Shown here piece by piece: positions 4,001 to 56,517 of a stretch of DNA of 64,000 nucleotides. Below the pieces are notes generated by a model that had not been told where the DNA came from, ran no database searches, and was given only the letters and a program-made list of their open reading frames with translations. Numbering within the stretch: position 1 is the first letter of the stretch; every line of letters begins with the position of its first letter. Both the position numbers and the translations under genes were made by a program. Source of the stretch: an uncultured Actinomycetota bacterium (lineage in GTDB: Bacteria > Actinomycetota > Actinomycetes > Propionibacteriales > Propionibacteriaceae); contig CAVXAP010000030.1 in NCBI GenBank assembly GCA_963759635.1, positions 142,149 to 206,148 of the forward strand, read 5' to 3'.

Positions 4001-4014
4001 GGGTCAAAGGTCTC
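4001..4014. promoter_or_regulatory. DosR/DevR-like box candidate GGGTCAAAGGTCTC, upstream of ppsA
   Basis: 14-mer of the recurring GGGWC-N4-GWCYC pattern, 46 nt from the ppsA ORF start (70 nt from the alternative ATG). It differs at 3 of 14 positions from the box at 24012. Confidence 0.4.
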
Positions 4015-4040
4015 CATTCGGGATCGATTCGGCCACTGTT

Positions 4041-4166
4041 CCAGAAGTGGCCGTGCGGCTCAACGAGGGCCGAGCAGCCGCGCGATTCGGGACTATCGAC
4101 CCTGCCATCACCAACACTTCTTGATCACCCTGTGAGGTAGAGCTGCGGCGATTCCTGTCCACGGCT
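4041..4166 (+). repeat. Copy 1 of a ~125-bp direct repeat (duplicated promoter module)
   Basis: Aligns by eye to 4524-4652 with scattered mismatches, one 3-nt indel and one 1-nt indel. No reading frame is conserved between the copies, so it is non-coding. Confidence 0.85.
4089..4102. promoter_or_regulatory. DosR/DevR-like box candidate GGGACTATCGACCC (inside repeat copy 1)
   Basis: Identical 14-mer, with the flank ttcGGGAC, to the one at 4574. It lies between divergent ppsA and the CPBP 5' fragment. Confidence 0.45.
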
Positions 4167-4287
4167 GGCTCGGATGGCCGAAACCGAGCGGTACCGAGGA
4201 ACCCTGGCATGCGCTTCACCCCACTGGCCGACCCACGCATTGAACGGACGGCGCGAGGCCTCCTCACACCTGTTGCAGGAGGCCACC

Positions 4288-4464
4288 ATGACAACCACTA
4301 GGGCGTTCATCACGCGGCACGCGCTGCTGAGCTACTTCGCTCTCACGTTCGCTCTCTCATGGGCTGCCGTTGTCATTGTGCTCGGCGGAGTCCCTGGCCC
4401 CAAGACGCAATCCGAAGACCTGTTGCCGTTTGCGATCTTGGCGAGCCCGCTGTCCTCTTCTTAA
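4288..4464 (+). pseudogene. CPBP (CAAX-type) intramembrane protease, 5' fragment only (~58 codons)
   Basis: MTTTRAFITRHALLSYFALTFALSWAAVVIVLGG is a typical N-terminus of actinobacterial CPBP proteins. The ORF stops after 58 codons, before the EExxxR / FxxxH catalytic motifs. Confidence 0.6.
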
Positions 4465-4499
4465 CGCCGACATGGGCGGCTTAACACCGAGATGGGCGG
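4460..4499 (+). repeat. 2 x 20-bp tandem repeat at the truncation point of the CPBP fragment
   Basis: cttaacgccgacatgggcgg / cttaacaccgagatgggcgg (18 of 20 identical). The premature TAA (4462-4464) lies inside the first unit. Confidence 0.85.
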
Positions 4500-4523
4500 C
4501 CCGCCGAGGCGGTGGTGTCGGTT

Positions 4524-4652
4524 GCAGAAATGGTCGCGCGGCTCAAGAAGAGGGCCGAGCAGCGGTGCGATTCGGGACTATCGACCCTGCCCATTGCCAA
4601 TACTTCTTGATCACCCTGTGAGGTAGAGCTGCGGCGATCCCTGCCCACGGCT
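4524..4652 (+). repeat. Copy 2 of the ~125-bp direct repeat (promoter module of the Acg-type gene)
   Basis: See copy 1. It ends about 40 nt before the start codon at 4691. Confidence 0.85.
4574..4587. promoter_or_regulatory. DosR/DevR-like box candidate GGGACTATCGACCC, upstream of the Acg-type nitroreductase
   Basis: 104 nt upstream of ATG 4691. The flanks ttcGGGACTATCGACCCtg resemble the mycobacterial consensus TTSGGGACTWWAGTCCCSAA. Confidence 0.5.
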
Positions 4653-4690
4653 TGCGCCCAAGCGCCAAGCGAATATCAAGGAGTCCCAAC

Positions 4691-5683
4691 ATGTCGACTG
4701 TTCAGGAAGAGACGAAGGCGCTGTTCAGAAAGGCAGTGGAGCGGGCCAGCCTGGCACCGTCGATCCACAACACGCAGCCGTGGCACTTTGTGGTTCGACC
4801 CGACGTTCTCGAGTTGCACGCTGACGACAGTCGACAGCTCAGAGCCTTGGATCCCACTGGCCGCCAACTGGCCATCAGTTGTGGCTGTGCATTGTTCAAT
4901 GCCCGAGTTGGTTTGGCCGCCGACCGCGCCGTAGAAGTGGACCGCTTGCCGGACCCCGCCAAACCCGACTTGCTGGCGCTACTCACCGTGCTTGATGAGC
5001 CCGCCCCATGGACGCCGCTGGTCAGGCTCGACCCCATGATCGAGAGACGGCACACGAACCGCCGAGACTTCTTCGACGAGAATGTCCCTCCGGATGTCAT
5101 CTATGAGCTGATCACTGCTGCCGAGCAGGAGGAGGCGTCGTTGGTACAGGTTGTGGATCCCGAGAAGAAGCTCGCTGCAGCGCAGCTGTCGCAGGAGGCC
5201 GAGGCTATCCAGAATGCCGACCCGGGATATCAGGCGGAGCTTCAGACATGGACGACTACTGACCTGAAGAGGACCGACGGCGTTCCGGTTTACGCAATTC
5301 CGCGTACCGATGCCGGTTCCGAGCCGGAGGCTCTGATTCGCAACTTCGACGTTGCCGGACAGGGCTGGCTGCCAAGACTGAGGCAGTCAAGCCTCAACCA
5401 CTGCCTGATGGTGCTTGGGACGGCGGAATCTACCCGCTCGGCCTGGTTGCGAGCTGGCGAGGCGCTTCAGCGCATCTTGCTCGAAGCTACCCGGTTGGAT
5501 TTCGTCGTCAGTCTCGCCAGCCAGGTGGCAGAAGTGCCGTCCACACGGAACCGCCTTCGCAAGGAGCTTGATCTCGAGTTTCATCCACTTCTCTTGATGA
5601 GGATCGGCCAAGCAGCCCCAACGCCGGCCTCCAAGCGACGTGATGTGGACAAGATCATTTCGGAGGAGGAGCCTGGAGAGTGA
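4691..5683 (+). CDS. Acg-family FMN-binding nitroreductase-fold protein
   Basis: AAGGAG RBS before ATG 4691. LAPSIHNTQPWHF and RRHTNRRDF motifs, and a two-lobed ~330-aa architecture typical of Acg/Rv2032-like proteins. Confidence 0.85.
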   Translation: MSTVQEETKALFRKAVERASLAPSIHNTQPWHFVVRPDVLELHADDSRQLRALDPTGRQLAISCGCALFNARVGLAADRAVEVDRLPDPAKPDLLALLTVLDEPAPWTPLVRLDPMIERRHTNRRDFFDENVPPDVIYELITAAEQEEASLVQVVDPEKKLAAAQLSQEAEAIQNADPGYQAELQTWTTTDLKRTDGVPVYAIPRTDAGSEPEALIRNFDVAGQGWLPRLRQSSLNHCLMVLGTAESTRSAWLRAGEALQRILLEATRLDFVVSLASQVAEVPSTRNRLRKELDLEFHPLLLMRIGQAAPTPASKRRDVDKIISEEEPGE

Positions 5684-6193: not shown

Positions 6194-6602
6194 CTCAGAT
6201 TGCCGCCTTCCGGAGGAGGCGTCGATCCCTGCGGCGTGCGCTGCTCAGCCAGCGATAGCCGGCCACGCCATTCCTGGAGTCAGTAGCCTGCACGCCAATC
6301 ATTGAAGACCCCTCGATCTGCTCGGTGGACATCTCGTGATTAGTTCAATCCTCAGATCGGGGGAAGCACCAGAGGTCAACGACCCAAGATCGGGATCGCC
6401 CTCACCCACCCGCTCGCGCCTCCACCCTCATGCGACGTCAGGTGTGCGTTGCCGGCGGCGCTGTAGCTGTTCGCGTTGGGCGTGGAGGCGTCGGATGCGA
6501 GCGTTGAGTTGGGGTCGCTGATCTTGGTCGATCCACCGCGGCGGGACCCATTCCGATAGCCGGTCGACGTTGATGCGGCAGGGCTTCGCCCTCGTCGGCA
6601 GG

Positions 6603-8075
6603 CTATCTCCGGGCATCGATGACGCCCATCATTCCTTGATCTTCGTGGTCGAGTATGTGGCAGTGATAGACGGTGCGGCCGGTGAAGTCCTCGAAGGCAA
6701 TGCGCACCTTGACGTTGCTGCGGGCGGGGATGTTGACCACGTCTTGCCAGGTTGGCTCCTTGAGCTGCTGGCCGTTCTCCTCGATAAGTTGCATAGGCCA
6801 GACATGGAGGTGGATCGGGTGGTCCATAGGGGAGGTGTTTGTGACGACCCATTCCTCGATCGTCCCGACCGCCACAGTTTGGTCGATCCGGTTGGGGTCG
6901 AATTCCTTGCCGTCAATGATGAAGCGCATGGTGCCGCCACCCATGGCGTTCGCGAACGTCAGCTGGCGGCTGCGGGCGACTGACGCCTGGCGCAGGTCAC
7001 GCGGCTCGGCCTGCGCAGGGATGGGCGGCAAGGGTGTCACACCGCCGCCGGTCACGTCCAGGGTGGCGAGCAGGGTGGCACCAGCGTCGCTCCTGGCCTG
7101 CGGGTCGTCTCCCATGCGACCACGACCCATGCCCATGATGTCGCCACGGTCGTACGGCGTCGTTTCCAGCTGACCAGTGCCGGGGGCTGTCGTGACAAGC
7201 AGGTCGGCCCGGTTGCCGCTTGCCAGCACCACTTCCGTGACGTCGCGTGGGGTGGCGAAGCGGCCGGAGTCAAGGCCGAGGAGCTCCAGTCGTTGGCCTT
7301 CAAGGCGCAGCCGCAGGTAGCGAGCGGTGCAGGCGTTGACGATTCGCCAGCGCTCCCGCTCACGGGCCTGGGCTGACAGGATCGGACGGGCCTGACCGTT
7401 GACGAGCACGAGGTCGCCCTCTCGCCCTCGTATTCGAGCCATGGCCGAGGGGGGCCGGATGCTGCCGGCGGCGTTGAGAGTGATGTCGGAAATTACCAGG
7501 ACCCGTTCGCGGGTGACCGGCAACGGGCCAGATCCTCGGACTGGGTCGCTGACGATGATGGCGCCGTATAGTCCGCCGAAAATCTGGTCAGCGACCGTGC
7601 CGTGATGGTGCGGGTGATACCAGTACACGCCGGGCGGGTGATCCGGGGGCAGTTGGTAGTCGTAGTCAAAGGATGCGCCGGGCTTGACGGTGACGAAGGC
7701 GTTGTCCCCGTTGCCCTCGGGGGAGACGTGCAGGCCGTGCACATGCAGGTTGGTCGGGTTGTTGAGCCGATTGACCAGCTGGACGCTTAACCGGTCTCCG
7801 GGCTGCAGGTGCAGGGTCGGCCCGGGCAAGCCGCCGTTGTAGCTCAAAGCGGTAGCTCGCCGGCCGGCGATGCGGACCGGCCCGGCGGCCGCCTCGAGGC
7901 GCATCTGCAACAGGCCGTCGATGCTGGTGAGTACGGGTGGCTCGACCAGTTCGGCCGACGGAGTAACTCGAAACCCAGAGGAGGACTTCCAGGTCAGTCC
8001 AGCCGCGCCGGCAACCACGCTTGCCAGACCAAGTCCTGCGAGCTGAATGGCCCGGCGCCGGCTGAGGGGTTGCAT
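6603..8075 (-). CDS. Multicopper oxidase with Tat signal peptide
   Basis: N-terminal SRRRAIQLAGLGLASVVAGAAG (twin-arginine). Copper-ligand motifs LHVHGLH, WYHPHHHG, HPIHLHV and HCHILDHEDQGMM. Confidence 0.9.
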   Translation of the reverse strand: MQPLSRRRAIQLAGLGLASVVAGAAGLTWKSSSGFRVTPSAELVEPPVLTSIDGLLQMRLEAAAGPVRIAGRRATALSYNGGLPGPTLHLQPGDRLSVQLVNRLNNPTNLHVHGLHVSPEGNGDNAFVTVKPGASFDYDYQLPPDHPPGVYWYHPHHHGTVADQIFGGLYGAIIVSDPVRGSGPLPVTRERVLVISDITLNAAGSIRPPSAMARIRGREGDLVLVNGQARPILSAQARERERWRIVNACTARYLRLRLEGQRLELLGLDSGRFATPRDVTEVVLASGNRADLLVTTAPGTGQLETTPYDRGDIMGMGRGRMGDDPQARSDAGATLLATLDVTGGGVTPLPPIPAQAEPRDLRQASVARSRQLTFANAMGGGTMRFIIDGKEFDPNRIDQTVAVGTIEEWVVTNTSPMDHPIHLHVWPMQLIEENGQQLKEPTWQDVVNIPARSNVKVRIAFEDFTGRTVYHCHILDHEDQGMMGVIDARR

Positions 8076-8338
8076 CAGGCGTCCTTGCGGAGCTCCTGGA
8101 GATGTTCGCGATACTCCTCTGTGCTCAACTCACCGCGGGCGTACCGCTCATCAAGGATCCTGCGTGCCTGACCTGGCCCCGGTGGCCGGCCGCCCAGACC
8201 GGCGTAGCCGCTCCGATTGATGCCGCCGCCAAGAACACGAACCAGCACGACAACCACCAAGGTAATGCCGAGGACCACGAGTAGCCCGAACAGCCAGAAC
8301 CACCACATCCCCACTATTCCGGATCCGTTCCCCATCAC
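8075..8338 (-). CDS. SHOCT-domain membrane protein
   Basis: One N-terminal TM helix. The C-terminal ARRILDERYARGELSTEEYREHLQELR matches the SHOCT pattern. Its stop overlaps the start of the downstream oxidase (TGATG). Confidence 0.75.
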   Translation of the reverse strand: MMGNGSGIVGMWWFWLFGLLVVLGITLVVVVLVRVLGGGINRSGYAGLGGRPPGPGQARRILDERYARGELSTEEYREHLQELRKDA

Positions 8339-8481
8339 GATGATTCCTCCCTTCTAGGACGTGGGGCTTCGATTCTCGGCTGTCGCTGAGCGGGTGTCTC
8401 CAAGCCGGCGCAGAGGTCGTGATCCCGCCCTGGTTCTGCTGCTCGGACCGCCAATGATGGTCGCTGGGGGAACGCCAGGAG

Positions 8482-8772
8482 TCACCGCTTTATTAGCGCA
8501 GCCCCCGGACAGCCGGTCGCGGCGGTCACCGTCAAGATCGGCCGGTGGTCTGACACGTTCTGGGCCCGAAACGGTGGATACGGATCCGTTCCGTGGGCGC
8601 CGTACGCGTAGTGGCAGCGCAGCGCCCGGACATTGAAGTCGACGGTGCACCGCGGGCTGCGTGCGGTCGGCAAGGTCGGAAAGAGCACTGCGACCGTGAG
8701 CACGACGAACGTCAGCCCTGGAGAAGCCAATACGATGTGGAGCCGCAGAGCTAGCAAACATTTCGCAACCAC
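8482..8772 (-). CDS. Hypothetical small protein with hydrophobic N-terminus and 4 Cys
   Basis: 96-aa ORF. Third-codon positions are mostly G/C by eye, and a hydrophobic leader precedes CTVDFNVRALRCHYAYGAHG. I recognise no family. Confidence 0.3.
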   Translation of the reverse strand: MVAKCLLALRLHIVLASPGLTFVVLTVAVLFPTLPTARSPRCTVDFNVRALRCHYAYGAHGTDPYPPFRAQNVSDHRPILTVTAATGCPGAALIKR

Positions 8773-9426
8773 CCGCAGCGGCTGAGATTGCCATCCAGCC
8801 GCGCAGCCACCGGCATACGTAGATCCACGTCGTCACGATGTCTTTGCCTCCACCGTCCACCCTTCCCCGCACTCGTCATCGATCGTCAGTGGCGTTGGTC
8901 CTATCCGGCCGCGACCAACGACAGGTCTTCGGCGTGTCTGGATGACGTAAACCGAGGCTTGTCAGCACCGCGCAAGCGCTGACCATCCCCACAATCCCGG
9001 AGAACTCTCAAACGGTCTGGCTAGCGTCGAGCGGCGGTGTTGATCATGGTGGGCCTCGCGTTGAGGTCGGCTTCCTCGTTTGCGGGTGGCCTGAGTTGGT
9101 AAGGGAGCTTGTTCGGTTTGGATGGTGTCGCGTCGCAGGTGAGCCGGTCGCCCGCCTTGGTGACGATCAGCTTGAACGGCAGTGACAAGTCCCGGCAGCC
9201 GCCGATCCCGTGCAACGGAACCCTGGAACAAAGCCTGTGTCTCGAGACCGTAACCCCAAAAATGATCGCGGCGTCAGGCCGTGCGCAGGCGTCGCCGGCG
9301 GGTCAGAGGTCATGAGATGCCCGGAGTGATATCGAGCGAAGATCTCGACCTCCTGTGATGAAGCCAAAGGCGACGGACAACAATCCGCCAGCCGCTCATG
9401 CCGCCAAGCGGTGCTGTGGCTACTCA

Positions 9427-9440
9427 GAGGCGAAGGTCCC
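9427..9440. promoter_or_regulatory. Weak DosR-like box candidate GAGGCGAAGGTCCC, upstream of PaaK-like gene 1
   Basis: Perfect right half (GTCCC) and a GAAG spacer as at 51694 (reverse strand); the left half is degenerate. It lies 41 nt from ATG 9481 and 83 nt from the alternative ATG 9523. Confidence 0.25.
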
Positions 9441-9480
9441 TACCGTTGCCTAGGTTCTGGCGCTTTGCTTGGCAGACAAC

Positions 9481-10899: not shown

Positions 10900-11074
10900 C
10901 CTTAGAAAACAATTGAGATCAATGCAGCGCAATCTTACGAATCGGTCCGGTCAACCACTCAGCGGTTGGCGACCACTCGCAGGTTCAACGTAGTGCTGTC
11001 GGTGTTGGTTCTGTTGCTGGTGCTGAGGCTCAACGGTTGGGTCAGCGGTCACGTGATGGCACGTCGTCAGCCCG

Positions 11075-11536
11075 TTATTGGGATTCGGCCACCCGACTTG
11101 AGGATGCCGGAGGGTTCTTGGCGCTAGCGGTGCATCTAGCCAGATCGGTCTGTCGCTTGAGAAAGTCCAAGATGCGCTTATCGACGATGTCGTGCTGGCC
11201 GACTGACCGAACGTGGCCGATCTCGGCTGAACCTGCCGGCTCTACTGCGGTGGACGTCATGGGCCATCCGGCGGCCCGCCCGCGGGACGCTTATCACTAC
11301 ATGGGTGTGCACGTAGCGACCAGTGACCTCGATCGACTCGTATGGCACCGGCCACAGCCGCAGCCTGGTGGTATGCGGTCAGGTAGAGAGCTTTCCCTTC
11401 GGGCTTCTGAATGCGAAGGCAAGCGGTTGGCGGTCGTATCACCGTGTTCAATGACTGACGTCTTCATCGCAGAAGGGGGGTCACGCAGGAACGCGACGGT
11501 GCACGTACCCACGAAGTTGGGTTCGTCGACACTCAT
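11075..11536 (-). pseudogene. Possible decayed 3' part of an alpha/beta hydrolase
   Basis: Three short ORFs in different frames. The last ends ...GHVRSVGQHDIVDKRILDFLKR, which resembles the C-terminus of alpha/beta-fold hydrolases. Weak. Confidence 0.25.
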
Positions 11537-11563
11537 GACATGGCCGGCGTTCGCCTGGCAGGT

Positions 11564-12169: not shown

Positions 12170-12406
12170 CGAAGATCTTTCAACGGAGTGAGGGCAGACA
12201 GGCGCAGTTGAACACCTACAGGCAAGACAAGACACCAATCTGATGGTCAGCCTCGCAGTCGGCCCAACACAGCTCGGCGCTGGCCTGGCCCAGAGTCATG
12301 CCACCGCCCAGCCGAGCGCCTGCCCAACATGCCGACAGGCTGCCAACGCCTCACACGACCGTCCGTCATGAGCTCCGATGGGATTGGAGATGACTCCCTT
12401 GCCCCT

Positions 12407-12425: not shown

Positions 12426-12478
12426 TTTGGTCGATTATCTCGCCCAAGGATGGCGATAGACACAAACTGCGGAGGGCT

Positions 12479-16341: not shown

Positions 16342-16361
16342 TCATTAGAAGTTTCAGTCTG

Positions 16362-24011: not shown

Positions 24012-24025
24012 GGGACAAAGGTCCT
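24012..24025. promoter_or_regulatory. DosR/DevR-like box GGGACAAAGGTCCT, upstream of triple-USP gene 1
   Basis: Core of an extended inverted repeat GTGAGGGACAAAGGTCCTCAC (24008-24028), 95 nt upstream of ATG 24120. Confidence 0.55.
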
Positions 24026-24119: not shown

Positions 24120-25544
24120 ATGAACAACGAGATCGTTGTTGGACTGGACGATTCGCCGTCGAGTAAGGCTGCGTTGAATTGGGCAGCTGAGCAGGCCAGG
24201 AGGCTCAGTGCCGTACTTCGAGCCGTACACGTGCTTGACTGGCCGTACGGGCTCAGCTCCGCCGGCTTTCCCGCGCCAGTCAACTTCATGGAGGTGAGCC
24301 ACGAGGAGCTCAAGGAGTCATACCGGAAGGCGATCACCGCGGTGTTCGACGCCGTATCGCCTCGTCCCGACTGGATCCTGCAGTTCGCCAGCGGGGATAC
24401 CGGCCGGGTCCTGGTTCGGCAATCTCAAGACGCACGCCAACTCGTGGTGGGTACTCGCGAACACGTTGGGCTGGGGCGGCTGCTGAGCGGCTCGGTGAGC
24501 CACTACTGCCTCAGCCATGCTGTCTGTCCGGTCGTCGCGGTGCCGGCCGCCTCTGATCGCCCTGCCGAGGATTCTGACGCAGCCGGGCAGGACACCACCG
24601 TGGTATTCGATGAAGGTGTCGGGGCTGCGAGCCCAGCGGCGGAGGGAATGATCGGCGAGGCCGAGGCACCGGGTAGGCCGCTGGTGGTGGCGGGCGTAGA
24701 CGCATCGGCGGAATCGTTGGGGGCTGCACACTACGCAGTCACGGCGGCTGAGCTGCGCGGCAGTGACATCCTCCTGGTGCACGCCTTTCCACCTCCATCG
24801 GCGCGGGCCCCTGACACGGATGCCGCGTTCTCGGCGGCCCGGACCACGGCAGAGAAACTCCTCGCAGCGGTGGCTGCACAGCTGATCGTTCCTCCAGAGG
24901 TGCACGTGTATGGGAGGGCCGAGCCGGATGATGCTGTGACGGTCCTCGAAGGCTCAGCCCGCCAAGCCGCGATGCTGGTGCTGGGTCGCGACGATGTGTC
25001 GTGGTTTGAGCGGTTGTTCATGGGCGCTGTCACGTCGCAGGTTGTCGGTCACGTCGCATATCCGGTGGTCGTAGTCCCCGGCAACTGGCGTGCCCGCCAT
25101 GCCTCTCCGCGGCTGCCGGTGATTGTTGCACTTGACGGCGAGACAGCGCCGGAGCCTGCGCTGAAGTTGGCGTTCGAGGAGGCGAGGCTGCGTGATGCTC
25201 GAGTGATTGTGCTGCACGCCCAGCCGATGACCGCCTCGCCTCGCGATCTGACCGCCGCGCGATTAGATCTTGAAGAAGTACTGGCGGAATGGGAGCGAAA
25301 CCATCCTGAAGTCGCGATCTCGACCGCGATCGTCACCGGCGACGCCGACGCTCAGCTCATACGGTGGTCCCGATCGGCGGCCGTCTTGGTGGTCGGTCAG
25401 CCACATCAGCGTCGCTGGGGACCATGGACTCGGTCGGTGGCCCGCAGTGTGATGAAGCAGACACACTGTCCGCTTATCGTGGCACCACAGGCCACGGCCG
25501 AGCCCGAACGACATTCTGCACTGGCAGAGCAGGCCCTGACTTGA
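24120..25544 (+). CDS. Universal stress protein with three USP domains
   Basis: GGAGG RBS. Domain 1 runs MNNEIVVGLDDSPSS...CPVVAVP, domain 2 LVVAGVDASAES...YPVVVVP and domain 3 PVIVALDGETAP...CPLIVAP, with an acidic linker after domain 1. Confidence 0.88.
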   Translation: MNNEIVVGLDDSPSSKAALNWAAEQARRLSAVLRAVHVLDWPYGLSSAGFPAPVNFMEVSHEELKESYRKAITAVFDAVSPRPDWILQFASGDTGRVLVRQSQDARQLVVGTREHVGLGRLLSGSVSHYCLSHAVCPVVAVPAASDRPAEDSDAAGQDTTVVFDEGVGAASPAAEGMIGEAEAPGRPLVVAGVDASAESLGAAHYAVTAAELRGSDILLVHAFPPPSARAPDTDAAFSAARTTAEKLLAAVAAQLIVPPEVHVYGRAEPDDAVTVLEGSARQAAMLVLGRDDVSWFERLFMGAVTSQVVGHVAYPVVVVPGNWRARHASPRLPVIVALDGETAPEPALKLAFEEARLRDARVIVLHAQPMTASPRDLTAARLDLEEVLAEWERNHPEVAISTAIVTGDADAQLIRWSRSAAVLVVGQPHQRRWGPWTRSVARSVMKQTHCPLIVAPQATAEPERHSALAEQALT

Positions 25545-28763: not shown

Positions 28764-30269
28764 CTACTGCCCCCGATGATCAAGTGGGCGAGCACCTGAT
28801 GGTCCTGCCAAGGGTCGAGTGCGTCGGCCACGGACGTTAGCGGTTGATTCAATCAATGCGCTTAGGTCGTCGCGCATACTCGCGGCGAAGACGTCGACGT
28901 CGGGGTAGGCCTCCGCATCGCCGACCACCATGACGTTGAATTGCCCCGCGTAGGAAAGCGCGCCAACTCCAAGCGACTCTGTCCCGAGGAGGTTCAAAAG
29001 CGGGAACACCTCGAACAGCTTCGCGCCGGCGAAGTAGAGCGGGGCATGAGGACCGGGCAGATCAGCGCTAACGATGTTCACCCGCTGCCGGACGATGAGC
29101 TTGAGCATTACCCCTCGGACCAACCTGCTGCGGAACATCGCCCCCAGCGACGGACGGCTGATCGCCTTCCGTTTCGCTGTCTCGCTCGCGATCTGCCGCA
29201 GCCTCCGGCCAGGATCGGCGATCCCAAGTGGGAGGGGGACAACCATCTGGCTGATCAGATTCCCTCCTTCCTGACTCGACCGGCCGCGGCGAAGTGAAAC
29301 GGGCACGTAGATCGGCAGGGTGACCCCGTCGATCCGTTCGCCGCGGCTGCGCAGCAGCCCTCGCAGGCCCCCAGCAATCACGGTCAACAGCACATCATTC
29401 ACCGTTGCGTCGAGCATGTGCGCGACCTCATTGACCAGCTCCAGGCTGCTACGCAGCAACGCGAGAGTGCGCTCCTGGCCAATCACCCGATTGAGGCTCG
29501 TTCGCGGTCCCGGTTCCTCGGCGAGAAGCTCGCGGAGCGCGGGCATCGCGGCTCGCGCACTTTGCAGGATCGCTGTGGGACGCGTAATCGCTCTCAGAGC
29601 ACGCCTCAGCTTCGCGATTTGGCGCTCGAGGTTGTCAAAGAGCAGAGCACGTGCCGATGGCCGCGGGGTGGGAACCCACGGCTGTGCTGGTGGCGTCGCC
29701 GAGTTCGGTGATGCGTCCAGCAACACACCGAGTTCCGCCACGCCGGCAATGCCGTCGGCGATCACGTGGTGCAATCGCACAAACCAGCCAATACGGTCAG
29801 CAGGCAGCCCCGTGAGGAACCACATCTCCCAGAGTGGCCGCGACTTGTCCAGAGGGCGCCGTCGCAGCCGCGCCACCGCCCGCAGCAGCTCCGCCTCGTC
29901 GGCTGGGGGCTGAAGTCGCTCGACGTGGATGTGGTCGCTCAGGTCGAACGCCGGTGCATCAACCCACAGCGGCCCACCGAGGCCTCGCCTGGGTATGTGA
30001 AGGATCTGACGGAACCGGCGGAGGAGGTGCAGCCGACCTTCGATCGCGTGCTTCGCGGCCTCGATCCGGAAGCTGCCGTCGGATTCGAGGAGGTTGTTGC
30101 CGTCAAGGATACCGAGCGCACCGATGTCCTGCGGCCATGCCTCGTCCGGCCACAGGATAAGCCGGTCTTCTGCGCTCAGCCGCTCCACCGACGACACCTG
30201 ACGAGCATGCCCGGGTCCTGCGGACCGGGCTAGGGGCTTTCGACCTGGCTTGCGATAGATGGGTCTCAC
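28764..30269 (-). CDS. WS/DGAT (Tgs-like) acyltransferase, paralog 2
   Basis: HHVIADGIAG (HHxxxDG), WVDAPAFDLSDHIHV. The start may be an internal GTG (about 30197). Confidence 0.85.
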   Translation of the reverse strand: MRPIYRKPGRKPLARSAGPGHARQVSSVERLSAEDRLILWPDEAWPQDIGALGILDGNNLLESDGSFRIEAAKHAIEGRLHLLRRFRQILHIPRRGLGGPLWVDAPAFDLSDHIHVERLQPPADEAELLRAVARLRRRPLDKSRPLWEMWFLTGLPADRIGWFVRLHHVIADGIAGVAELGVLLDASPNSATPPAQPWVPTPRPSARALLFDNLERQIAKLRRALRAITRPTAILQSARAAMPALRELLAEEPGPRTSLNRVIGQERTLALLRSSLELVNEVAHMLDATVNDVLLTVIAGGLRGLLRSRGERIDGVTLPIYVPVSLRRGRSSQEGGNLISQMVVPLPLGIADPGRRLRQIASETAKRKAISRPSLGAMFRSRLVRGVMLKLIVRQRVNIVSADLPGPHAPLYFAGAKLFEVFPLLNLLGTESLGVGALSYAGQFNVMVVGDAEAYPDVDVFAASMRDDLSALIESTANVRGRRTRPLAGPSGARPLDHRGQ

Positions 30270-31671: not shown

Positions 31672-31685
31672 GGGACAAAGGCCCC
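31672..31685. promoter_or_regulatory. DosR/DevR-like box GGGACAAAGGCCCC in the divergent region 31503-31842
   Basis: Differs from the 24012 box at 2 of 14 positions. It lies 170 nt from the acyltransferase start and 158 nt from the 31843 gene. A TGTGGGGTTTCC string 7 nt upstream resembles the site at 20527. Confidence 0.45.
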
Positions 31686-32533: not shown

Positions 32534-32547
32534 GGGTCAGAGGTCCC
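32534..32547. promoter_or_regulatory. DosR/DevR-like box GGGTCAGAGGTCCC, upstream of the DUF6448-like gene
   Basis: Both half-sites fit the pattern, 123 nt upstream of ATG 32670. Confidence 0.5.
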
Positions 32548-33307: not shown

Positions 33308-33321
33308 GGGTCCAAGGACTC
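33308..33321. promoter_or_regulatory. DosR/DevR-like box GGGTCCAAGGACTC, upstream of DUF998 paralog 1
   Basis: 12 of 14 identical to the ppsA box, 77 nt upstream of ATG 33398. A homologous, more degenerate sequence lies at the same distance before the paralog at 56596. Confidence 0.45.
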
Positions 33322-34198: not shown

Positions 34199-34226
34199 GG
34201 GACTTCCGCTCAGGGACCTTCGCCTC
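34199..34226. promoter_or_regulatory. Two adjacent GGGAC half-site repeats (GGGACTTCCGCTCA, GGGACCTTCGCCTC), upstream of PaaK-like gene 2
   Basis: Directly abutting 14-mers that share GGGAC..TTC.GC.TC, 61-88 nt upstream of ATG 34287. The right halves are degenerate. Confidence 0.3.
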
Positions 34227-35875: not shown

Positions 35876-35889
35876 GGGACTAACGACTC
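35876..35889. promoter_or_regulatory. DosR/DevR-like box GGGACTAACGACTC, upstream of the beta-lactamase-fold lipoprotein
   Basis: 12 of 14 identical to the Acg box, 51 nt upstream of ATG 35940. Confidence 0.45.
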
Positions 35890-51601: not shown

Positions 51602-51693
51602 CCCGCACCTCCTCGTGCCGGGCCAACGTCCGATGCTTCCGATGCTGCCCGCCACTGCGCCGAGAACCCACGGCCCTTCGTCGGGGGTCTAGG

Positions 51694-51707
51694 AGGACCT
51701 TCGTCCC
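51694..51707. promoter_or_regulatory. DosR/DevR-like box AGGACCTTCGTCCC (GGGACGAAGGTCCT on the minus strand)
   Basis: 93 nt upstream of the USP start at 51601, against 95 nt for its paralog. It also lies 237 nt upstream of the divergent 2TM gene. Confidence 0.55.
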
Positions 51708-52308: not shown

Positions 52309-52512
52309 CAAGTTTGCCCGTTTCATGTGTCGAGTTGCGCTCGCTTGCTTATGTCCCCTGAGGGTCGGGGAGAGCCAGGGGCGGAGGATTTGAGGCTCCA
52401 GAGTCCCGGCACACGCCCGGATCCAGTGCGTATGCGGAACAGGGCCGATCGGCCCTAGCCACTCGGGCCGTCTGATCCTCCCTCTGCTGTCGCGCACGTG
52501 TGACATTGAGGC

Positions 52513-53927: not shown

Positions 53928-54001
53928 CCTGTTGAATCAGACCGACACGGCTGCTGAGAAATCCCGCCCTCAGGGGTAAAGGACATGTCGGCGCAGCTGG
54001 G

Positions 54002-54721
54002 TTACTGGATCGGCTCGCTGGTCGCAGGTGGTTGCGCCGGACCCTCGGGGTCGACACTGCCCTGGTCGAGCCGGAACGGCGGGTACCGGTCGGTCATCAA
54101 CGCCACATAAACCAGCAGCCGGTAGCCCCACCGATCGATTCCAACTGCCAAATCAAAGAGGCCAGGGGGATAACGCGTAGTGAACAGCAACGCAATAGCC
54201 GCGATCAGTACTGACGCGCCGATCAGGCTGGGGGTGGAATAGGTAACGGCGCGGCCGTCCTGCATGCTTGTGGCCACGACGTAACCGGAGCCGACAAGCG
54301 CACCGACAAGGATGTATTGCGGGAAGGCGAGCAGCCACTTGACCAGCGGCAGCCAACGATTCAGCTGCTGCGGGTAGTCGATGTCCAACCGCGCCGGATA
54401 GTCGGGGACATCGGCGAGCGTGAACGGCGGGTACCGGTCGGTAGCCAGCGCCGCGTAGCCGTAGAAGCTCACCCGCCACGACCACCGAATCACCCCGACG
54501 TTGAAGTCGAACAGGCCCTTCGGGTACCTGGTCGTGAACAAGATCGCGAAGAAGGCGATCACGGTGACAATCCAGAACGCAAGCCACAGGAAAACCAGAA
54601 TGATGTAGTGCGGGATCAGCAGTAACCATTTGACAAGCCACAACCCCCGGCTGGGCTGGTCGAAAAAGCCTCGCACGGAAAGTGGATATGCAACGGAAAG
54701 TGGTTCGGCGGTGGAACTCAT
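54002..54721 (-). CDS. DUF4389-domain membrane protein (two repeats)
   Basis: AAGGAGG RBS before ATG 54721. LIPHYIILVFL...TDRYPPF is repeated twice. Confidence 0.8.
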   Translation of the reverse strand: MSSTAEPLSVAYPLSVRGFFDQPSRGLWLVKWLLLIPHYIILVFLWLAFWIVTVIAFFAILFTTRYPKGLFDFNVGVIRWSWRVSFYGYAALATDRYPPFTLADVPDYPARLDIDYPQQLNRWLPLVKWLLAFPQYILVGALVGSGYVVATSMQDGRAVTYSTPSLIGASVLIAAIALLFTTRYPPGLFDLAVGIDRWGYRLLVYVALMTDRYPPFRLDQGSVDPEGPAQPPATSEPIQ

Positions 54722-54767
54722 GGTGTCCTCCTTGGATACGGCAGACACAACCCGCCGCTTTGTCCAC

Positions 54768-54787
54768 TATCGAGGAAAGCCTCGATA
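54768..54787. promoter_or_regulatory. 20-nt perfect inverted repeat TATCGAGG-AAAG-CCTCGATA
   Basis: 8-bp perfect arms, 47-66 nt upstream of the DUF4389 start. It could be an operator or a 5'-UTR hairpin. Confidence 0.3.
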
Positions 54788-55183
54788 CGGGTCAACGCGA
54801 CGCACGCAGGATGGGGACGGAAACACAGGTCGTAGCTGCCCGACACCGTGGGCTTCCACCCTTTTCGCCGGAATCGCAATCATATTTAGGCAGTTCGACG
54901 CTCGCCACGTGGGCTTTGGAGTGTGGGGTGTCTTTGACGCAGGCGTGATGGGCTGGCGCGCAACAGATCTCAGCGAGAACGACGCACCATTCGGCCTGGG
55001 AACCGGTAGGGCCAGAGGTCGTGAACTCGTAGGCGTTGGAACTCCTGCCGCTGCCACCTGCGGCACGACGTCGCCAAGTCGCACAGTGGCATGGACGCCG
55101 GGGCGAGGGCTTCCAGGCCGAAAGCCTCTCCCCGCGGCCCTAATGCCGTCTTACGTTGCAGATGGGATTTGGAGGTGAGGACC

Positions 55184-56059
55184 GTGAATGTTGAAGATCA
55201 GGATCCGCTGGCCGACCGGTTCACGGCCTTCCGGCGCGACTACCCCTATCGCGAGACGTCCTGCCGGGGTATGGTGTGGCGCTACCGGACCGGAGGCGCG
55301 GCCGACCGCCCGACAGTGCTAATACTCCCCGGGGGCACGCTGGTTCCGGACCCGCTGTTTGTCGTCGTCCAGGCGCTCGGCCGCCAGTACCGGGTGATCG
55401 CACCCGCCTACCCGCCCGCCGTCACGATGGCCGACCTGGTTGCCGGCGTCACCGCCGTCCTCGACGCCGAGCAGGTTGCGACCGCGCATGTGGTCGGCTC
55501 CTCCTTCGGCGGATACGTGGCCCAGTGCCTTCTGCGTGCCCACCCGGAGCGGGTTGACAGCTTGGTTCTTGCCCAGACTGGTGTCCGGCACTTCATCGGT
55601 CCGGTCCCCCTGGCGTTGCTACACGCCGTGCTGCGCGTGGCACCGGCCGGGCTGGTGCGCTCGTTTACCTGGCGGACCTGGAAGACACTCCTTGCCGACA
55701 TCGGCCCGGACCAGCAGTTCTGGATGGCCCTGCTCCATGACATCCTCGACCACCAACTGACGAAGGCTCACCTGGTCGCCGTAACGGCTGCGATCGGCGA
55801 CTTCGCCGCCCACCACCGGCCTATGCCCGGAGCCCTCGAGTGGACGCGGCCGGTCCTAGTGCTGCAGTCTGAACACGACCGCGCTTTCGCCGTCCAGGCC
55901 AACGAGATCCGCGCCGTCTACCCCACCGCGGCCTTCCACGTTTTCGAGGGCGCGGGGCACGGCGCGCTATTCACCCACACCGATCAATACATCGACCTGC
56001 TGCAGGCGTTCCTGGCCGACCCGGTGGCCTTCGCCGCCGCCTCCCGGGATCCGCAATGA
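55184..56059 (+). CDS. Alpha/beta hydrolase
   Basis: GGAGGTGAGG RBS before GTG 55184. Nucleophile elbow VVGSSFGG and C-terminal GAGHGALFTH. Confidence 0.8.
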   Translation: MNVEDQDPLADRFTAFRRDYPYRETSCRGMVWRYRTGGAADRPTVLILPGGTLVPDPLFVVVQALGRQYRVIAPAYPPAVTMADLVAGVTAVLDAEQVATAHVVGSSFGGYVAQCLLRAHPERVDSLVLAQTGVRHFIGPVPLALLHAVLRVAPAGLVRSFTWRTWKTLLADIGPDQQFWMALLHDILDHQLTKAHLVAVTAAIGDFAAHHRPMPGALEWTRPVLVLQSEHDRAFAVQANEIRAVYPTAAFHVFEGAGHGALFTHTDQYIDLLQAFLADPVAFAAASRDPQ

Positions 56060-56071
56060 GCACACCGAGAC

Positions 56072-56512
56072 TTGCGCCGGATCCCCAATCGCGGACCGGA
56101 AGGCTTGGGAATGCCTTGCTGCTCGACCAAAGCGGCAACAGTCCAGCGTCCACCCGGTGACGTCTTCGAGTTCCTCTCCGACGTCCAAGCTGCGGTCGCA
56201 CCGGGATCGGGGGTTCGAATGATCAAGATCCCGCCCGGACGGACGACCCCCGGCACAGTGTGGCACGAACAGGTCGGGGTGGCGCCAGGGTGCTGGATGC
56301 ACGTTGACAGCGTTGCCGCTGAGGTCGAGGCCGCCTCGGCAAATCGCGATGGACTTTCTAGGCGACCTCGCCGTGACCCGCTGGCTTCCGGGCACATCGC
56401 AGGGAATGGGGCAGTGATCGATGCCGGGTCCCGAGCGACGGCCGGCCCAAGACACTGGATGCTGCCAGCCCATCCCGCGTGTGAGGAAGTGGACCCCGAG
56501 ATCGGGCCTTAG
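56072..56512 (+). pseudogene. SRPBCC-like ORF, probably frameshifted
   Basis: The N-terminal ATVQRPPGDVFEFLSDV is SRPBCC-like. The distal half loses similarity, while an alternative frame reads IAMDFLGDLAVTRWLPGT. Weak. Confidence 0.3.
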
Positions 56513-56517
56513 GGCTC
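56504..56517. promoter_or_regulatory. Degenerate DosR-like box GGGCCTTAGGGCTC, upstream of DUF998 paralog 2
   Basis: 79 nt from ATG 56596, against 77 nt for paralog 1. The downstream CTCTACGCC string is shared with the 33308 site. Confidence 0.25.

What the first reader, a model, noticed from the sequence alone, without database searches (positions are those of the whole stretch)
4001..56517. Recurring 14-bp palindromic box (GGGWC-N4-GWCCC) before ten or more genes: a DosR/DevR-type dormancy regulon, with no regulator in the window
Seen in sequence. Closely related 14-mers occur in intergenic DNA at these positions:
- 4001 GGGTCAAAGGTCTC (ppsA)
- 4089 and 4574 GGGACTATCGACCC (CPBP fragment; Acg)
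- 24012 GGGACAAAGGTCCT (USP)
- 31672 GGGACAAAGGCCCC (acyltransferase-3/WS-DGAT operon and the divergent gene)
- 32534 GGGTCAGAGGTCCC (DUF6448-like)
- 33308 GGGTCCAAGGACTC (DUF998)
- 35876 GGGACTAACGACTC (beta-lactamase-fold lipoprotein)
- 51694 GGGACGAAGGTCCT, reverse strand (USP)
- 53177 GGGACCTTGGTCCG (DUF523)
Weaker versions lie at 9427, 20527, 23707, 34199/34213 and 56504. Most sit 50-125 nt upstream of the proposed start codons, and paralog pairs have almost identical spacing (95 vs 93 nt for the USPs, 77 vs 79 nt for the DUF998 genes). Established knowledge: the M. tuberculosis DosR consensus is TTSGGGACTWWAGTCCCSAA. Its regulon includes ctpF, acg, hspX, Rv1738/Rv2632c (DUF1876), several USPs, tgs1, pfkB and PPOX-like proteins, and homolog classes of all of these are present here. 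Inference: a DevR/OsdR-like NarL-family regulator encoded elsewhere controls this set. The regulon here also recruits families not associated with the mycobacterial one (PaaK-like ligases, DUF998, DUF6448, DUF523, 2TM, a class-A beta-lactamase-fold lipoprotein).
Basis: partly seen in the sequence, partly recalled or inferred. Interest (0 to 1): 0.78.

Follow-up and report, generated by a model that had tools for sequence, protein, structure and literature searches.

The report
DosR-type dormancy boxes before stress genes
A 14-bp palindrome (GGGAC-N4-GTCCC) sits in front of about a dozen stress genes in this soil actinobacterium and matches the binding site of the hypoxia/dormancy regulator DosR/DevR/OsdR, so this is a solid new example of a well-known regulon, not a new kind of system.

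Summary
All ten strong boxes are at the stated coordinates. The overlap-based gene map classes nine as intergenic; 32534 also becomes intergenic with curated starts. With the independent M. tuberculosis core GGGACTWWAGTCCC (≤3 mismatches), 8 of 10 window hits fall in the 20% of DNA that is intergenic (p=9e-5). Shuffled intergenic DNA gives 1.0 hit (0/300 shuffles reach 8). GGGWC-N4-GWCCC (≤1 mismatch) is enriched about 5-fold between genes and depleted inside genes. No convergent (3'-3') spacer has a box.

Orthologous promoters in other genomes and metagenomes keep a box before Acg, USP, ppsA, WS/DGAT, DUF998 and PaaK-like genes. Two DosR orthologs elsewhere carry the same box just upstream of themselves.

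- Sites 9427 and 34213 are strong. 56504 is plausible. 20527, 23707 and 34199 are background.
- Missed sites are 52441-52456 (an exact 16-nt Streptomyces OsdR consensus), 25418 and 30233.
- pfkB and PNPOx have no box.

No NarL-type regulator lies in the window or in about 8 kb (left) and 5 kb (right) of flank. Whether the genome encodes one could not be tested. Verdict: a new member of a known kind, probably in an uncultured Propionibacteriaceae lineage, and of moderate interest.

The parts
4001..4014 (.). Box GGGTCAAAGGTCTC. Its centre is 76 nt upstream of the ppsA start (3931, minus strand), in the divergent ppsA|Acg spacer.
   Evidence: PWM score 20.5, rank 1 in leave-one-out. The same box lies about 72 nt upstream of ppsA orthologs in L092, L093 and L134.
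4089..4102 (+). Box GGGACTATCGACCC, in copy 1 of the duplicated Acg promoter segment (4038-4169). It now precedes a short ORF remnant.
Evidence: Duplication shown. Relatives have a single copy, with box1-box2 spacing of about 88 nt.
4574..4587 (+). Box GGGACTATCGACCC. Its centre is 110 nt upstream of the Acg-family nitroreductase start (4691).
   Evidence: 2 mismatches to the M. tuberculosis core. A box lies upstream of about 30 Acg orthologs at 68-89% aa identity, mostly at -107 to -117 (three at -80 to -88). It is the most invariant block of the aligned promoter. Acg family membership.
9427..9440 (+). Box GAGGCGAAGGTCCC. Its centre is 89 nt upstream of PaaK-like/F390-synthetase-related ligase 1 (9523-10899).
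   Evidence: PWM 15.9, not in the training set, intergenic. The 14-mer is the reverse complement of the box at 34213.
24012..24025 (.). Box GGGACAAAGGTCCT. Its centre is 101 nt upstream of USP1 (24120-25544, plus strand) and 393 nt upstream of the divergent Rv2632c-like/HSP20/.../WS-DGAT1 gene string (23625 down to 19095, minus strand).
   Evidence: PWM 18.9. USP orthologs in L123, L132, L003 and L092 have a box at -97 to -103. A degenerate second box follows about 22 nt downstream.
25418..25431 (+). Candidate internal box GGGACCATGGACTC, inside the 3' end of USP1 and 116 nt upstream of PF00144 beta-lactamase-fold gene a (25541). Uncertain.
   Evidence: PWM 16.3. A similar sequence occurs at the same place in L002, but that could reflect coding conservation. 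In L092 the ortholog of the downstream gene has its own box at -64.
30233..30246 (-). Weak candidate box GGGGCTTTCGACCT, about 51 nt upstream of WS/DGAT 2 (start 30188, minus strand).
   Evidence: PWM 10.6, rank 15. The L092 ortholog has a box at -52.
31672..31685 (.). Box GGGACAAAGGCCCC in the divergent spacer. It is 176 nt from Acyl_transf_3 (followed by WS/DGAT2, minus strand) and 164 nt from an unknown 193-aa gene (plus strand).
   Evidence: PWM 18.4. With its flanks it reads AGGGACAAAGGCCCCT, a 0-mismatch hit to AGGGNC-N4-GNCCCT.
32534..32547 (+). Box GGGTCAGAGGTCCC, about 130 nt upstream of DUF6448 (gene-caller start 32670).
   Evidence: Exact pattern match. PWM 14.5. Gene start taken.
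33308..33321 (+). Box GGGTCCAAGGACTC. Its centre is 113 nt upstream of DUF998 a (33428).
   Evidence: PWM 17.2. The L001 ortholog has CATGGGTCCAAGGCCTCTAC at -115.
34213..34226 (+). Box GGGACCTTCGCCTC. Its centre is 61 nt upstream of PaaK-like ligase 2 (34281).
   Evidence: PWM 14.0, not in the training set. AGGACCTTCG-type boxes occur upstream of orthologs in L001, L003 and L004 (PWM 7.4, 12.6 and 12.3), within otherwise unalignable spacers.
35876..35889 (+). Box GGGACTAACGACTC. Its centre is 57 nt upstream of the class-A beta-lactamase-fold protein (35940).
   Evidence: PWM 15.6. 3 mismatches to the M. tuberculosis core.
51694..51707 (.). Box AGGACCTTCGTCCC. Its centre is 99 nt upstream of USP2 (start 51601, minus strand) and 243 nt from the 2TM gene (plus strand).
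   Evidence: PWM 15.1. Same spacing and same downstream CGACGAAGGGC element as the USP1 promoter.
52441..52456 (+). Perfect palindrome AGGGCCGATCGGCCCT, about 64 nt upstream of the GyrI-like gene (52513).
   Evidence: Identical to the 16-nt S. coelicolor OsdR consensus quoted in PMC5069765.
53177..53190 (+). Box GGGACCTTGGTCCG. Its centre is 105 nt upstream of the DUF523/TudS-related gene (53289).
   Evidence: PWM 16.0. Family assignment.
56504..56517 (+). Weak box GGGCCTTAGGGCTC. Its centre is 85 nt upstream of DUF998 b (56596).
   Evidence: PWM 8.4, rank 18. It shares the flank CTCTACGCC with the 33308 promoter. The L106 ortholog has a box at -147.

Best explanation
The boxes are operator sites for a dimeric NarL/LuxR-family response regulator of the DosR/DevR/OsdR type, encoded elsewhere in the genome.

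Proposed mechanism, by analogy with the M. tuberculosis and Streptomyces systems:
1. The regulator is phosphorylated by a DevS/DosT-like sensor kinase; in M. tuberculosis the signal (hypoxia, CO or NO) is sensed through the kinase's GAF domains (PMC6754071). A haem cofactor for that sensing is from my own recall, not checked in a paper read here.
2. Each monomer then contacts one GGGAC half-site.
3. The bound dimer activates weak promoters that lack a good -35 element.

This would switch on a clustered set of 11-13 transcription units within about 56 kb:
- Acg nitroreductase and PEP synthase
- two USPs
- two triacylglycerol/wax-ester synthase operons
- an Rv2632c-like/HSP20 operon
- lineage-specific genes: F390-synthetase-related ligases, DUF998, DUF6448, a TudS-related protein, a GyrI-like protein and beta-lactamase-fold proteins

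Shown here: the motif, its intergenic and upstream placement, its depletion in coding DNA, its conservation upstream of orthologs, and its presence upstream of dosR orthologs in other loci.

Inferred only: binding by a DosR ortholog, activation rather than repression, and the inducing signal.
For: **Match to known motifs**
- The motif matches the published DosR consensus (PMC2275270) and the OsdR consensus (PMC5069765).
- It includes the A...T flanks typical of OsdR and one exact 16-mer.

**Statistics**
- 8 of 10 hits to the independent consensus are intergenic (p=9e-5). The observed 8 compares with 1.0 in shuffles.
- Intergenic DNA has 18 hits against 3.7 expected, while coding DNA has 6 against 12.5.
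- There are no boxes in 9 convergent spacers, and intergenic scores are bimodal.

**Gene content**
- Acg, USP, HSP20, Rv2632c-like, WS/DGAT, PpsA and PNPOx families are present.
- The same families are listed as DosR regulon units in PMC2275270 and as OsdR targets in PMC5069765.

**Cross-species conservation**
- L003 has 6 boxes in 21 kb, before a USP, ppsA, an Acg-like gene and a ctpF-like/flavodoxin pair.
- L092 has 7 boxes in 14 kb.
- Acg orthologs carry a box (PWM ≥11) in 22 of 30 loci, mostly at about -110. Distant Acg homologs (45-52% identity) carry one at -48 to -119.
- USP orthologs carry one at -97 to -103.
- Most unrelated loci, all five betaproteobacterial ones included, have no high-scoring box; five have a single one, each inside a called gene.

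**Link to the regulator family**
- DosR orthologs (63% and 55% identical to DevR) in L139 and L021 have perfect boxes 50-70 nt upstream of themselves.
- In L126 a DosR ortholog lies next to an Acg-like gene with two boxes.
- DevS/DevR homologs are reported in Microlunatus phosphovorus, a member of the Propionibacteriaceae (PMC6754071).

**Promoter context**
- No sigma-70-like promoters are predicted near the boxes, as expected for activator-dependent promoters.
Against: - No DosR/DevS gene was found in the window or its immediate flanks. The rest of the genome could not be read.
- pfkB, PNPOx, ABM, VIT1 and the ctpF-like gene lack boxes.
- The Rv2632c-like/HSP20 operon has only a distal box, 393 nt away.
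- Part of the recurrence comes from promoter paralogy or duplication (USP1/USP2, DUF998a/b, the Acg promoter copies), so there are fewer independent sites than listed.
- The only experimental study of a DevR homolog in this family (PolR of M. phosphovorus) reported a different, direct-repeat motif, GTTCACnnnnnGTTCaC (PMC6754071). That motif is not enriched here (5 hits against 4.7 expected).
- There are no expression or binding data.
Confidence: 0.8

Rival explanations
1. The box is bound by a different dimeric transcription factor, not a DosR ortholog. This could be another LuxR/NarL paralog or an unrelated HTH protein. The regulon might then respond to another cue such as copper, redox state or nutrient starvation.
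For: - No regulator was identified.
- The central 4 bp and the flanks differ from the M. tuberculosis consensus: AAAG/CTTC instead of TWWA, and A..T flanks instead of S..S.
- PolR, the DevR homolog in M. phosphovorus, was reported to bind a different motif.
- A copper-resistance cluster sits inside the island.
Against: - The deviations from the M. tuberculosis consensus are exactly those seen in the OsdR consensus and its listed sites, such as AGGGACCTTCGGCCCC.
- The same box lies directly upstream of DosR orthologs in L139 and L021.
- The target families are the canonical DosR/OsdR ones.
- The copper genes themselves have no boxes.
Confidence: 0.12
2. The recurrence is mostly a by-product of promoter duplication along with paralogous genes, not of independent selection for a common operator.
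For: - 4089 and 4574 lie in a duplicated ~130-bp segment.
- The USP1 and USP2 promoters share extra downstream sequence. So do the DUF998a and DUF998b promoters.
- The PaaK-like 1 and 2 boxes are the identical 14-mer.
Against: - Boxes also precede unrelated genes whose flanks are unrelated: ppsA, Acyl_transf_3, DUF6448, the class-A-like protein, GyrI-like and DUF523.
- Orthologous spacers that are otherwise unalignable retain the box.
- The box is depleted in coding DNA.
- Duplicated promoters that keep their box are still functional operators.
Confidence: 0.05
3. The boxes are a non-regulatory intergenic repeat, an RNA hairpin or terminator, or a chance or compositional artefact.
For: - The whole-window enrichment is only marginal (24 against 16.7).
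- Short GC-rich palindromes are common in high-GC DNA.
Against: - The intergenic excess is about 5-8-fold over dinucleotide shuffles, and no shuffle reaches the observed counts.
- No box lies in a convergent (3') spacer.
- No terminator-like T-tracts are found at the boxes.
- Folding energies of six boxes with their flanks have z-scores from -2.65 to +1.4. Only one of six is clearly more stable than shuffles.
Confidence: 0.03

Closest known systems
Mycobacterium tuberculosis DosR/DevR dormancy regulon (consensus TTSGGGACTWWAGTCCCSAA)
   Same: - The same GGGAC-N4-GTCCC core and spacing.
- Boxes about 60-180 nt upstream of start codons, some shared by divergent gene pairs.
- Overlapping target families: acg/Rv3131-type nitroreductases, USPs, hspX-type HSP20, Rv1738/Rv2632c-like and tgs1-type WS/DGAT (PMC2275270).
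- Possible primary plus cryptic secondary box at the USP promoters.
   Different: - The central tetranucleotide is mostly AAAG/CTTC or TATC, not TWWA.
- The flanks are A...T, not S...S with TT/AA.
- The regulator is not adjacent to its targets here, whereas in M. tuberculosis dosRS sits among them.
- pfkB has no box, and the ctpF-like promoter (read only in a strain-variant contig) has none either.
- There are extra targets: F390-synthetase-related ligases, DUF998, DUF6448, TudS-related, GyrI-like and beta-lactamase-fold proteins.
Streptomyces coelicolor OsdR/OsdK regulon (consensus AGGGCCGATCGGCCCT)
   Same: - The A-GGGNC-N4-GNCCC-T form, with an exact 16-nt consensus copy at 52441-52456.
- Listed OsdR sites such as AGGGACCTTCGGCCCC closely resemble 34212-34227 (AGGGACCTTCGCCTCT), and the core of 51694-51707 (AGGACCTTCGTCCC) is similar.
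- Targets are clustered in one chromosomal region and include USPs, a nitroreductase, a pyruvate phosphate dikinase/PEP synthase-type enzyme and PNPOx (PMC5069765).
   Different: - Here most boxes have A/T at half-site position 4 (GGGAC/GGGTC), whereas OsdR sites usually have GGGCC.
- osdRK lies inside the Streptomyces cluster, but no regulator lies within this 64-kb island.
- PNPOx has no box here.
Microlunatus phosphovorus PolS-PolR (DevS/DevR homologs in the Propionibacteriaceae)
   Same: It comes from the same bacterial family as the likely source of this window. It shows that DevS/DevR-type systems exist there (PMC6754071).
   Different: - PolR was reported to bind direct repeats GTTCACnnnnnGTTCaC at phosphate and poly-P genes.
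- That motif is at chance level in this window.
- No poly-P genes are boxed here.

Membership tests
DosR/DevR/OsdR operator (Dos box) | Palindromic box with a GGGAC-N4-GTCCC core (14 bp; 16-20 bp with flanks). | tested here: met
   Window sites have 2-3 mismatches to GGGACTWWAGTCCC. There are 7 hits to AGGGNC-N4-GNCCCT at ≤1 mismatch, all intergenic, including an exact OsdR consensus. The consensus sequences were verified in PMC2275270 and PMC5069765.
DosR/DevR/OsdR operator (Dos box) | Located in promoter regions, upstream of start codons and not at 3' ends or in coding DNA. | tested here: met
   Box centres lie 57-177 nt upstream of gene-caller starts. There are 0 boxes in 9 convergent spacers. 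The motif is enriched in intergenic DNA and depleted in coding DNA.
DosR/DevR/OsdR operator (Dos box) | Box conserved upstream of orthologous targets in other species. | tested here: met
   Conserved for Acg (22 of 30), USP (all), ppsA (3 of 4), WS/DGAT (3 of 3) and DUF998 (all). For PaaK-like genes it holds only in the closest relatives. Unboxed control genes score 1 of 11.
DosR/DevR dormancy regulon | Targets include USPs, Acg-type nitroreductases, alpha-crystallin/HSP20, Rv1738-like proteins, tgs1-type WS/DGAT, ctpF and pfkB. | tested here: inconclusive
   Boxes precede Acg, both USPs and the Acyl_transf_3 to WS/DGAT2 string, which also has a weak proximal candidate before WS/DGAT2 (30233, PWM 10.6). 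WS/DGAT1 and the Rv2632c-like/HSP20 genes lie in one gene string whose only box is distal (393 nt). pfkB and PNPOx are present without a box. The ctpF-like promoter in a strain variant has no box scoring ≥9.
DosR/DevR dormancy regulon | A cognate NarL-family response regulator (REC + GerE/LuxR HTH) and a GAF-domain histidine kinase are encoded in the genome. | not testable with these tools
   Both are absent from the window (Pfam; tblastn with verified DevR). Both are absent from about 8 kb of left flank and 5 kb of right flank of strain-variant contigs. A search seeded with DevR was swamped by M. tuberculosis sequences.
DosR/DevR dormancy regulon | Autoregulatory box upstream of the regulator gene. 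| tested here: inconclusive
   Not testable for this genome. The feature is met in other loci: L139 (box 7566-7579, next to a dosR ortholog ending at 7514) and L021 (box 3408-3421, next to a dosR ortholog ending at 3344).
DosR/DevR dormancy regulon | Induction by hypoxia, NO or CO that depends on the regulator. | not testable with these tools
   No expression data are available, and the organism is known only from metagenome assemblies.

The most novel reading that the evidence does not exclude
In this uncultured Propionibacteriaceae-like lineage the DosR-type regulon may have been extended to a conserved module that no dormancy regulon read for this report (M. tuberculosis DosR, PMC2275270; S. 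coelicolor OsdR, PMC5069765) lists: F390-synthetase-related adenylate-forming ligases, DUF998 membrane proteins, DUF6448, a TudS-related desulfidase-like protein and beta-lactamase-fold proteins. The ligases could then act in a hypoxia-triggered cofactor or lipid modification pathway. From my own recall, not checked in a paper here, F390 synthetases adenylylate coenzyme F420 in response to O2 in methanogens. The canonical Dos box, rather than the published PolR direct repeat, may also be the true specificity of DevR orthologs in this family.
Probability: 0.3. Interest if true: 0.45.

Novelty: new member of a known kind. Interest (0 to 1): 0.3.

Why it matters
- It extends a well-characterised hypoxia/dormancy circuit, known from Mycobacterium and Streptomyces, to an uncultured soil lineage that is probably Propionibacteriaceae.
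- It gives a concrete 14-16-site operator set and a position weight matrix for scanning those genomes.
- It nominates several poorly characterised families as hypoxia-response candidates: F390-synthetase-related ligases, DUF998, DUF6448, TudS-related and GyrI-like proteins.
- It raises a testable doubt about the only published binding motif for a DevR homolog in this family.
- It does not reveal a new mechanism.

Tried and rejected
1. **Finding the window's own contig to read its flanks.**
   - Exact look-ups of ppsA and the OmpR-type regulator with several start codons failed.
   - A 40-mer scan of JGI metagenomes found nothing.
   - Near-identical strain contigs were reached through Acg, an abhydrolase and the Rv2632c-like protein. 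They added only about 5-8 kb per side and no DosR.
2. **Locating this organism's DosR.** A search of the protein collection with M. tuberculosis DevR listed only M. tuberculosis variants in its top 120. It was useful only to verify the probe sequence.
3. **De novo exact-dyad enumeration.** This was underpowered. The ≤1-mismatch version ranks the box first, but that is not significant after multiple testing.
4. **Looking for a fixed -10/-35 element downstream of the boxes.** No consistent TANNNT spacing and no sigma-70-like promoters were found.
5. **RNA hairpin or terminator reading.** Rejected.
6. **PolR direct-repeat motif.** At chance level.
7. **The OmpR-type response regulator at 61885-62628 as the regulator.** Rejected: its flank carries its own HAMP/HisKA kinase, and, from general knowledge not tested here, OmpR-family regulators bind direct repeats rather than palindromes.
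8. **The 'CPBP fragment' label for ORF 4174-4464.** No Pfam support.

Full report
**1. What the window is**

The window is 64% GC DNA. Pfam and NCBIfam scans of the ORF map give the following gene order:
- a ctpF-like P-type ATPase (1-1599, cut by the window start) and PEP synthase PpsA (1610-3931, minus strand);
- an Acg-family FMN oxidoreductase (4691-5683; NF047509, 283 bits against a cutoff of 199);
- a copper-resistance cluster at 6.6-18.1 kb (two multicopper oxidases, DUF305, a CopA-type ATPase), with a PaaK-like/F390-synthetase-related ligase (9523-10899) inside it;
- a minus-strand gene string Rv2632c-like, HSP20, unknown, AlkZ-like, WS/DGAT (23625 down to 19095);
- USP1 (24120-25544) followed by two PF00144 beta-lactamase-fold genes;
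- WS/DGAT 2 and Acyl_transf_3 (minus strand);
- an unknown gene, DUF6448, DUF998a, PaaK-like 2 and a class-A beta-lactamase-fold protein (31.8-37.4 kb);
- a box-free block with FGE, sulfatase, MFS, PfkB, ABM, PNPOx, VIT1, cupredoxin and a K+ channel (37.4-50.2 kb);
- USP2 (minus strand), 2TM, GyrI-like, DUF523/TudS-related, DUF4389, a hydrolase, DUF998b and DUF6544;
- an OmpR-type response regulator (61885-62628).

Exact-sequence look-ups show that several of these proteins occur on ENA metagenome contigs of near-identical strains. Members of their 90% clusters are named 'Propionibacteriaceae bacterium'. The closest genome hits to PaaK-like 2 are Propionibacteriaceae MAGs at 84% and 75%, a 3.6-kb 'Mycobacterium sp.' MAG contig at 83%, and Microlunatus at 69%. 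The source is therefore most likely an uncultured Propionibacteriaceae-like soil actinobacterium. Start codons were taken from the gene calls on those strain contigs.

All ten strong 14-mers are at the stated coordinates.

The whole-window test looks weak (24 against 16.7 expected) because two opposite effects cancel. In intergenic DNA, GGGWC-N4-GWCCC at ≤1 mismatch occurs 18 times against 3.7±1.9 in dinucleotide shuffles (0/200 shuffles reach 18). In coding DNA it occurs 6 times against 12.5 expected.

To avoid circularity I used the M. tuberculosis core from the literature, GGGACTWWAGTCCC. The consensus TTSGGGACTWWAGTCCCSAA is quoted in PMC2275270. At ≤3 mismatches there are 10 hits, and 8 lie in the 20.4% of the window that is intergenic (p=9e-5). 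Shuffled intergenic DNA gives 1.0 hit on average, and 0/300 shuffles reach 8.

An unbiased enumeration of all 5-mer palindromic dyads with spacing 0-8 ranks GGGAC-N4-GTCCC first for intergenic bias. That p-value alone would not survive multiple testing.

A palindromised PWM built from nine sites is self-consistent. Each left-out site ranks in the top 19 of about 64,000 positions. The best score per intergenic region is bimodal: eleven regions score ≥14 and all others score ≤10.6. None of the nine convergent spacers has a box.

**3. Corrections to the site list**

- Among the 'weaker' sites, 9427 (15.9) and 34213 (14.0) are strong.
- 56504 (8.4) is plausible because its promoter is paralogous to that of DUF998a, with the shared flank CTCTACGCC.
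- 20527, 23707 and 34199 are at background level.
- 4089 and 4574 are two copies of one ~130-bp promoter segment, 4038-4169 and 4521-4655, at 85-95% identity. Relatives have a single copy, arranged box, about 88 nt, box, about 110 nt, Acg start.
- Three sites were missed:
  - 52441-52456, AGGGCCGATCGGCCCT. This is exactly the 16-nt S. coelicolor OsdR consensus (PMC5069765). It lies 64 nt upstream of the GyrI-like gene.
  - 25418 (16.3), inside the 3' end of USP1 and 116 nt before the next gene. Its status is uncertain.
  - 30233 (10.6), before WS/DGAT 2. The L092 ortholog also has a box at -52.
- pfkB, PNPOx, ABM, VIT1 and the whole 37.4-50.2 kb block have no box. The ctpF-like promoter, read in a strain variant, has none scoring ≥9.

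**4. Evidence from other genomes**

High-scoring boxes are frequent in the closest relatives and rare in unrelated loci that were fetched by the same query. L003 has 6 in 21 kb and L004 has 3. Most of the 22 other loci scanned have none, including all five betaproteobacterial ones; five have a single one, each inside a called gene.

In L003, which is 78-86% identical at the protein level, boxes lie in four places:
- between a USP and ppsA;
- between the ortholog of the unknown 336-aa gene and another USP;
- before a flavodoxin-like/ctpF-like pair;
- 94 nt before an Acg-like gene.

JGI metagenomes gave about 40 loci with readable Acg upstream regions. Orthologs at 68-89% identity nearly all carry TTCGGGACTATCGACCCTGC, mostly at -107 to -117 (three at -80 to -88). 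The box is the most invariant block of the aligned promoter. Homologs at only 45-52% identity (L119, L120, L122, L124, L126) still carry a box at -48 to -119.

A systematic ortholog scan gave these counts of orthologs with a box:

| Gene | Orthologs with a box |
|---|---|
| ppsA | 3 of 4 |
| Acg | 22 of 30 |
| USP1/USP2 | 7 of 7 (all at -97 to -103, as in the window) |
| WS/DGAT | 3 of 3 |
| PF00144 genes | 4 of 4 |
| DUF998 | 4 of 4 |
| PaaK-like 2 | only the closest relatives |
| Unboxed controls (SRPBCC, VIT1, cupredoxin, K+ channel, hydrolase) | 1 of 11 |

Upstream of PaaK-like 2 the spacers of the window, L001, L003 and L004 cannot be aligned, yet each keeps an AGGACCTTCG-type box, although L001's scores only 7.4.

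**5. Link to DosR**

The DevR sequence I used as a probe is 100% identical to M. tuberculosis DevR. It finds nothing in the window. It does find orthologs in L139 (63%), L117 (59%), L021 (Pseudonocardia oceani, 55%) and partial ones in L126 and L149.
- In L139 a perfect box (GCAGGGACCAAAGTCCCTTT) lies about 52 nt upstream of the ortholog.
- In L021 a perfect box (GCCGGGACCTTCGGCCCGTC) lies about 64 nt upstream.
- In L126 the ortholog neighbours an Acg-like gene with two boxes.

This is the autoregulatory arrangement listed for osdR, which has a predicted OsdR site at -81 (PMC5069765).

The window's extended motif has A before GGG and T after CCC. Its central CTTC/GAAG tetranucleotides are closer to the OsdR site list, for example AGGGACCTTCGGCCCC, than to the M. 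tuberculosis consensus.

**6. Mechanism**

The best explanation is that a DosR/DevR/OsdR-type NarL-family dimer, encoded elsewhere, binds these boxes and activates weak promoters. No sigma-70-like promoter is predicted in 31.4-36.0 kb. The likely trigger is hypoxia or redox stress.

The USP promoters, and their orthologs, carry a degenerate second box about 22 nt downstream of the first. From my own recall, not checked in a paper here, this resembles the primary-plus-cryptic-site layout reported for some M. tuberculosis DevR promoters.

Binding, the direction of regulation and the inducing signal are all inferred, not shown.

**7. Rival explanations**

- **A different regulator.** This cannot be excluded without the genome. 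It is disfavoured by the dosR-adjacent boxes and by the canonical target set.
- **Promoter paralogy.** It explains the USP, DUF998, PaaK-like and Acg-copy pairs. It does not explain boxes before unrelated genes with unrelated flanks.
- **Hairpin, terminator or chance.** This is rejected by the placement of the boxes, the shuffle tests and the folding results.
- **PolR motif.** The published motif for the M. phosphovorus DevR homolog, GTTCACnnnnnGTTCaC (PMC6754071), is at chance level here.

**8. Novelty and verdict**

DosR-type regulons defined by this box are established in mycobacteria, through experiments and comparative genomics cited in PMC10034137, and in Streptomyces (PMC5069765). This window is a new member of a known kind. 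It is a box-dense, mosaic 'dormancy island' in a lineage where the system has not been described, with some lineage-specific candidate targets.

Interest is moderate to low (0.3). The regulator's presence in the genome remains the key untested point.

Noticed in passing
window 4038-4169 and 4521-4655: A ~130-bp Acg promoter segment, including its box, is duplicated 485 bp apart at 85-95% identity. Between the copies lie a short ORF remnant (4174-4464, no Pfam hit) and a 20-bp tandem repeat (4460-4499). More distant relatives have one copy. In strain variant L081 an IS110 transposase (8269-9501) sits in this same spacer.
   Followed up: partly
window 6600-18100: A copper-resistance cluster (two multicopper oxidases, SHOCT, DUF305, CopA-type ATPase, HMBD) interrupts the island. 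In L092 the order is ppsA, Acg, SRPBCC, WS/DGAT1 with no copper genes, so the cluster looks like an insertion. CopA and an oxidase are split into fragments in strain variants L082, L083 and L091. The copper genes have no boxes.
   Followed up: partly
window 39524-42020: The sulfatase is split over two frames. 39524-40426 matches Pfam Sulfatase positions 1-141 and 40107-42020 matches positions 132-300. This is a frameshift pseudogene or an assembly error. An SDR C-terminal fragment (37708-38334, minus strand) overlaps the FGE start.
   Followed up: partly
window coding regions overall: The box pattern is depleted in coding DNA: 6 observed against 12.5±3.4 in shuffles for GGGWC-N4-GWCCC at ≤1 mismatch, and 12 against 34.9 for GGGHC-N4-GDCCC. 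This may reflect selection against spurious sites or codon-structure effects.
   Followed up: no
window 24026-24060 and 51660-51693; also L123, L132, L092, L003: The USP promoters share a conserved element, (G)CGAC[GC]AAGGGC, 8-9 nt downstream of the main box. It looks like a degenerate second box about 22 nt centre-to-centre from the first. A conserved GGTTGT...TACGAC stretch follows in the USP1 copy and several orthologs (L123, L132, one L092 copy), but not in the USP2 copy. No TSS data are available to interpret it.
   Followed up: partly
window 9427-9440 and 34213-34226: The two PaaK-like/F390-synthetase-related paralogs carry the identical imperfect 14-mer (GAGGCGAAGGTCCC), but in opposite orientation relative to the downstream gene.
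   Followed up: no
L082 1-10000 (ENA ERZ25039596 contig_13885): In this near-identical strain ppsA and the ctpF-like gene are replaced by unrelated genes. The breakpoint lies just left of box 1, and all three boxes of the spacer are retained. The left edge of the island therefore varies between strains.
   Followed up: no
window 8336-9522 and 18081-19094: Two ~1-1.2 kb stretches have no convincing ORF and no family hit. They may be decayed genes or insertion scars flanking the copper cluster.
   Followed up: no
window 61885-62628 and right flank (L084-L086): An OmpR-type response regulator sits among PAP2, phosphoesterase, esterase and LPG_synthase_C genes. A HAMP-HisKA kinase lies about 3.8 kb further on, just beyond the window. 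This looks like a separate envelope or lipid-related two-component unit, unrelated to the boxes.
   Followed up: partly
literature: PMC6754071: The DevR homolog PolR of Microlunatus phosphovorus was reported to bind GTTCACnnnnnGTTCaC direct repeats. From general knowledge, a direct repeat is unusual for a LuxR-type HTH. Canonical Dos boxes before canonical targets in related genomes suggest this specificity deserves re-examination.
   Followed up: partly
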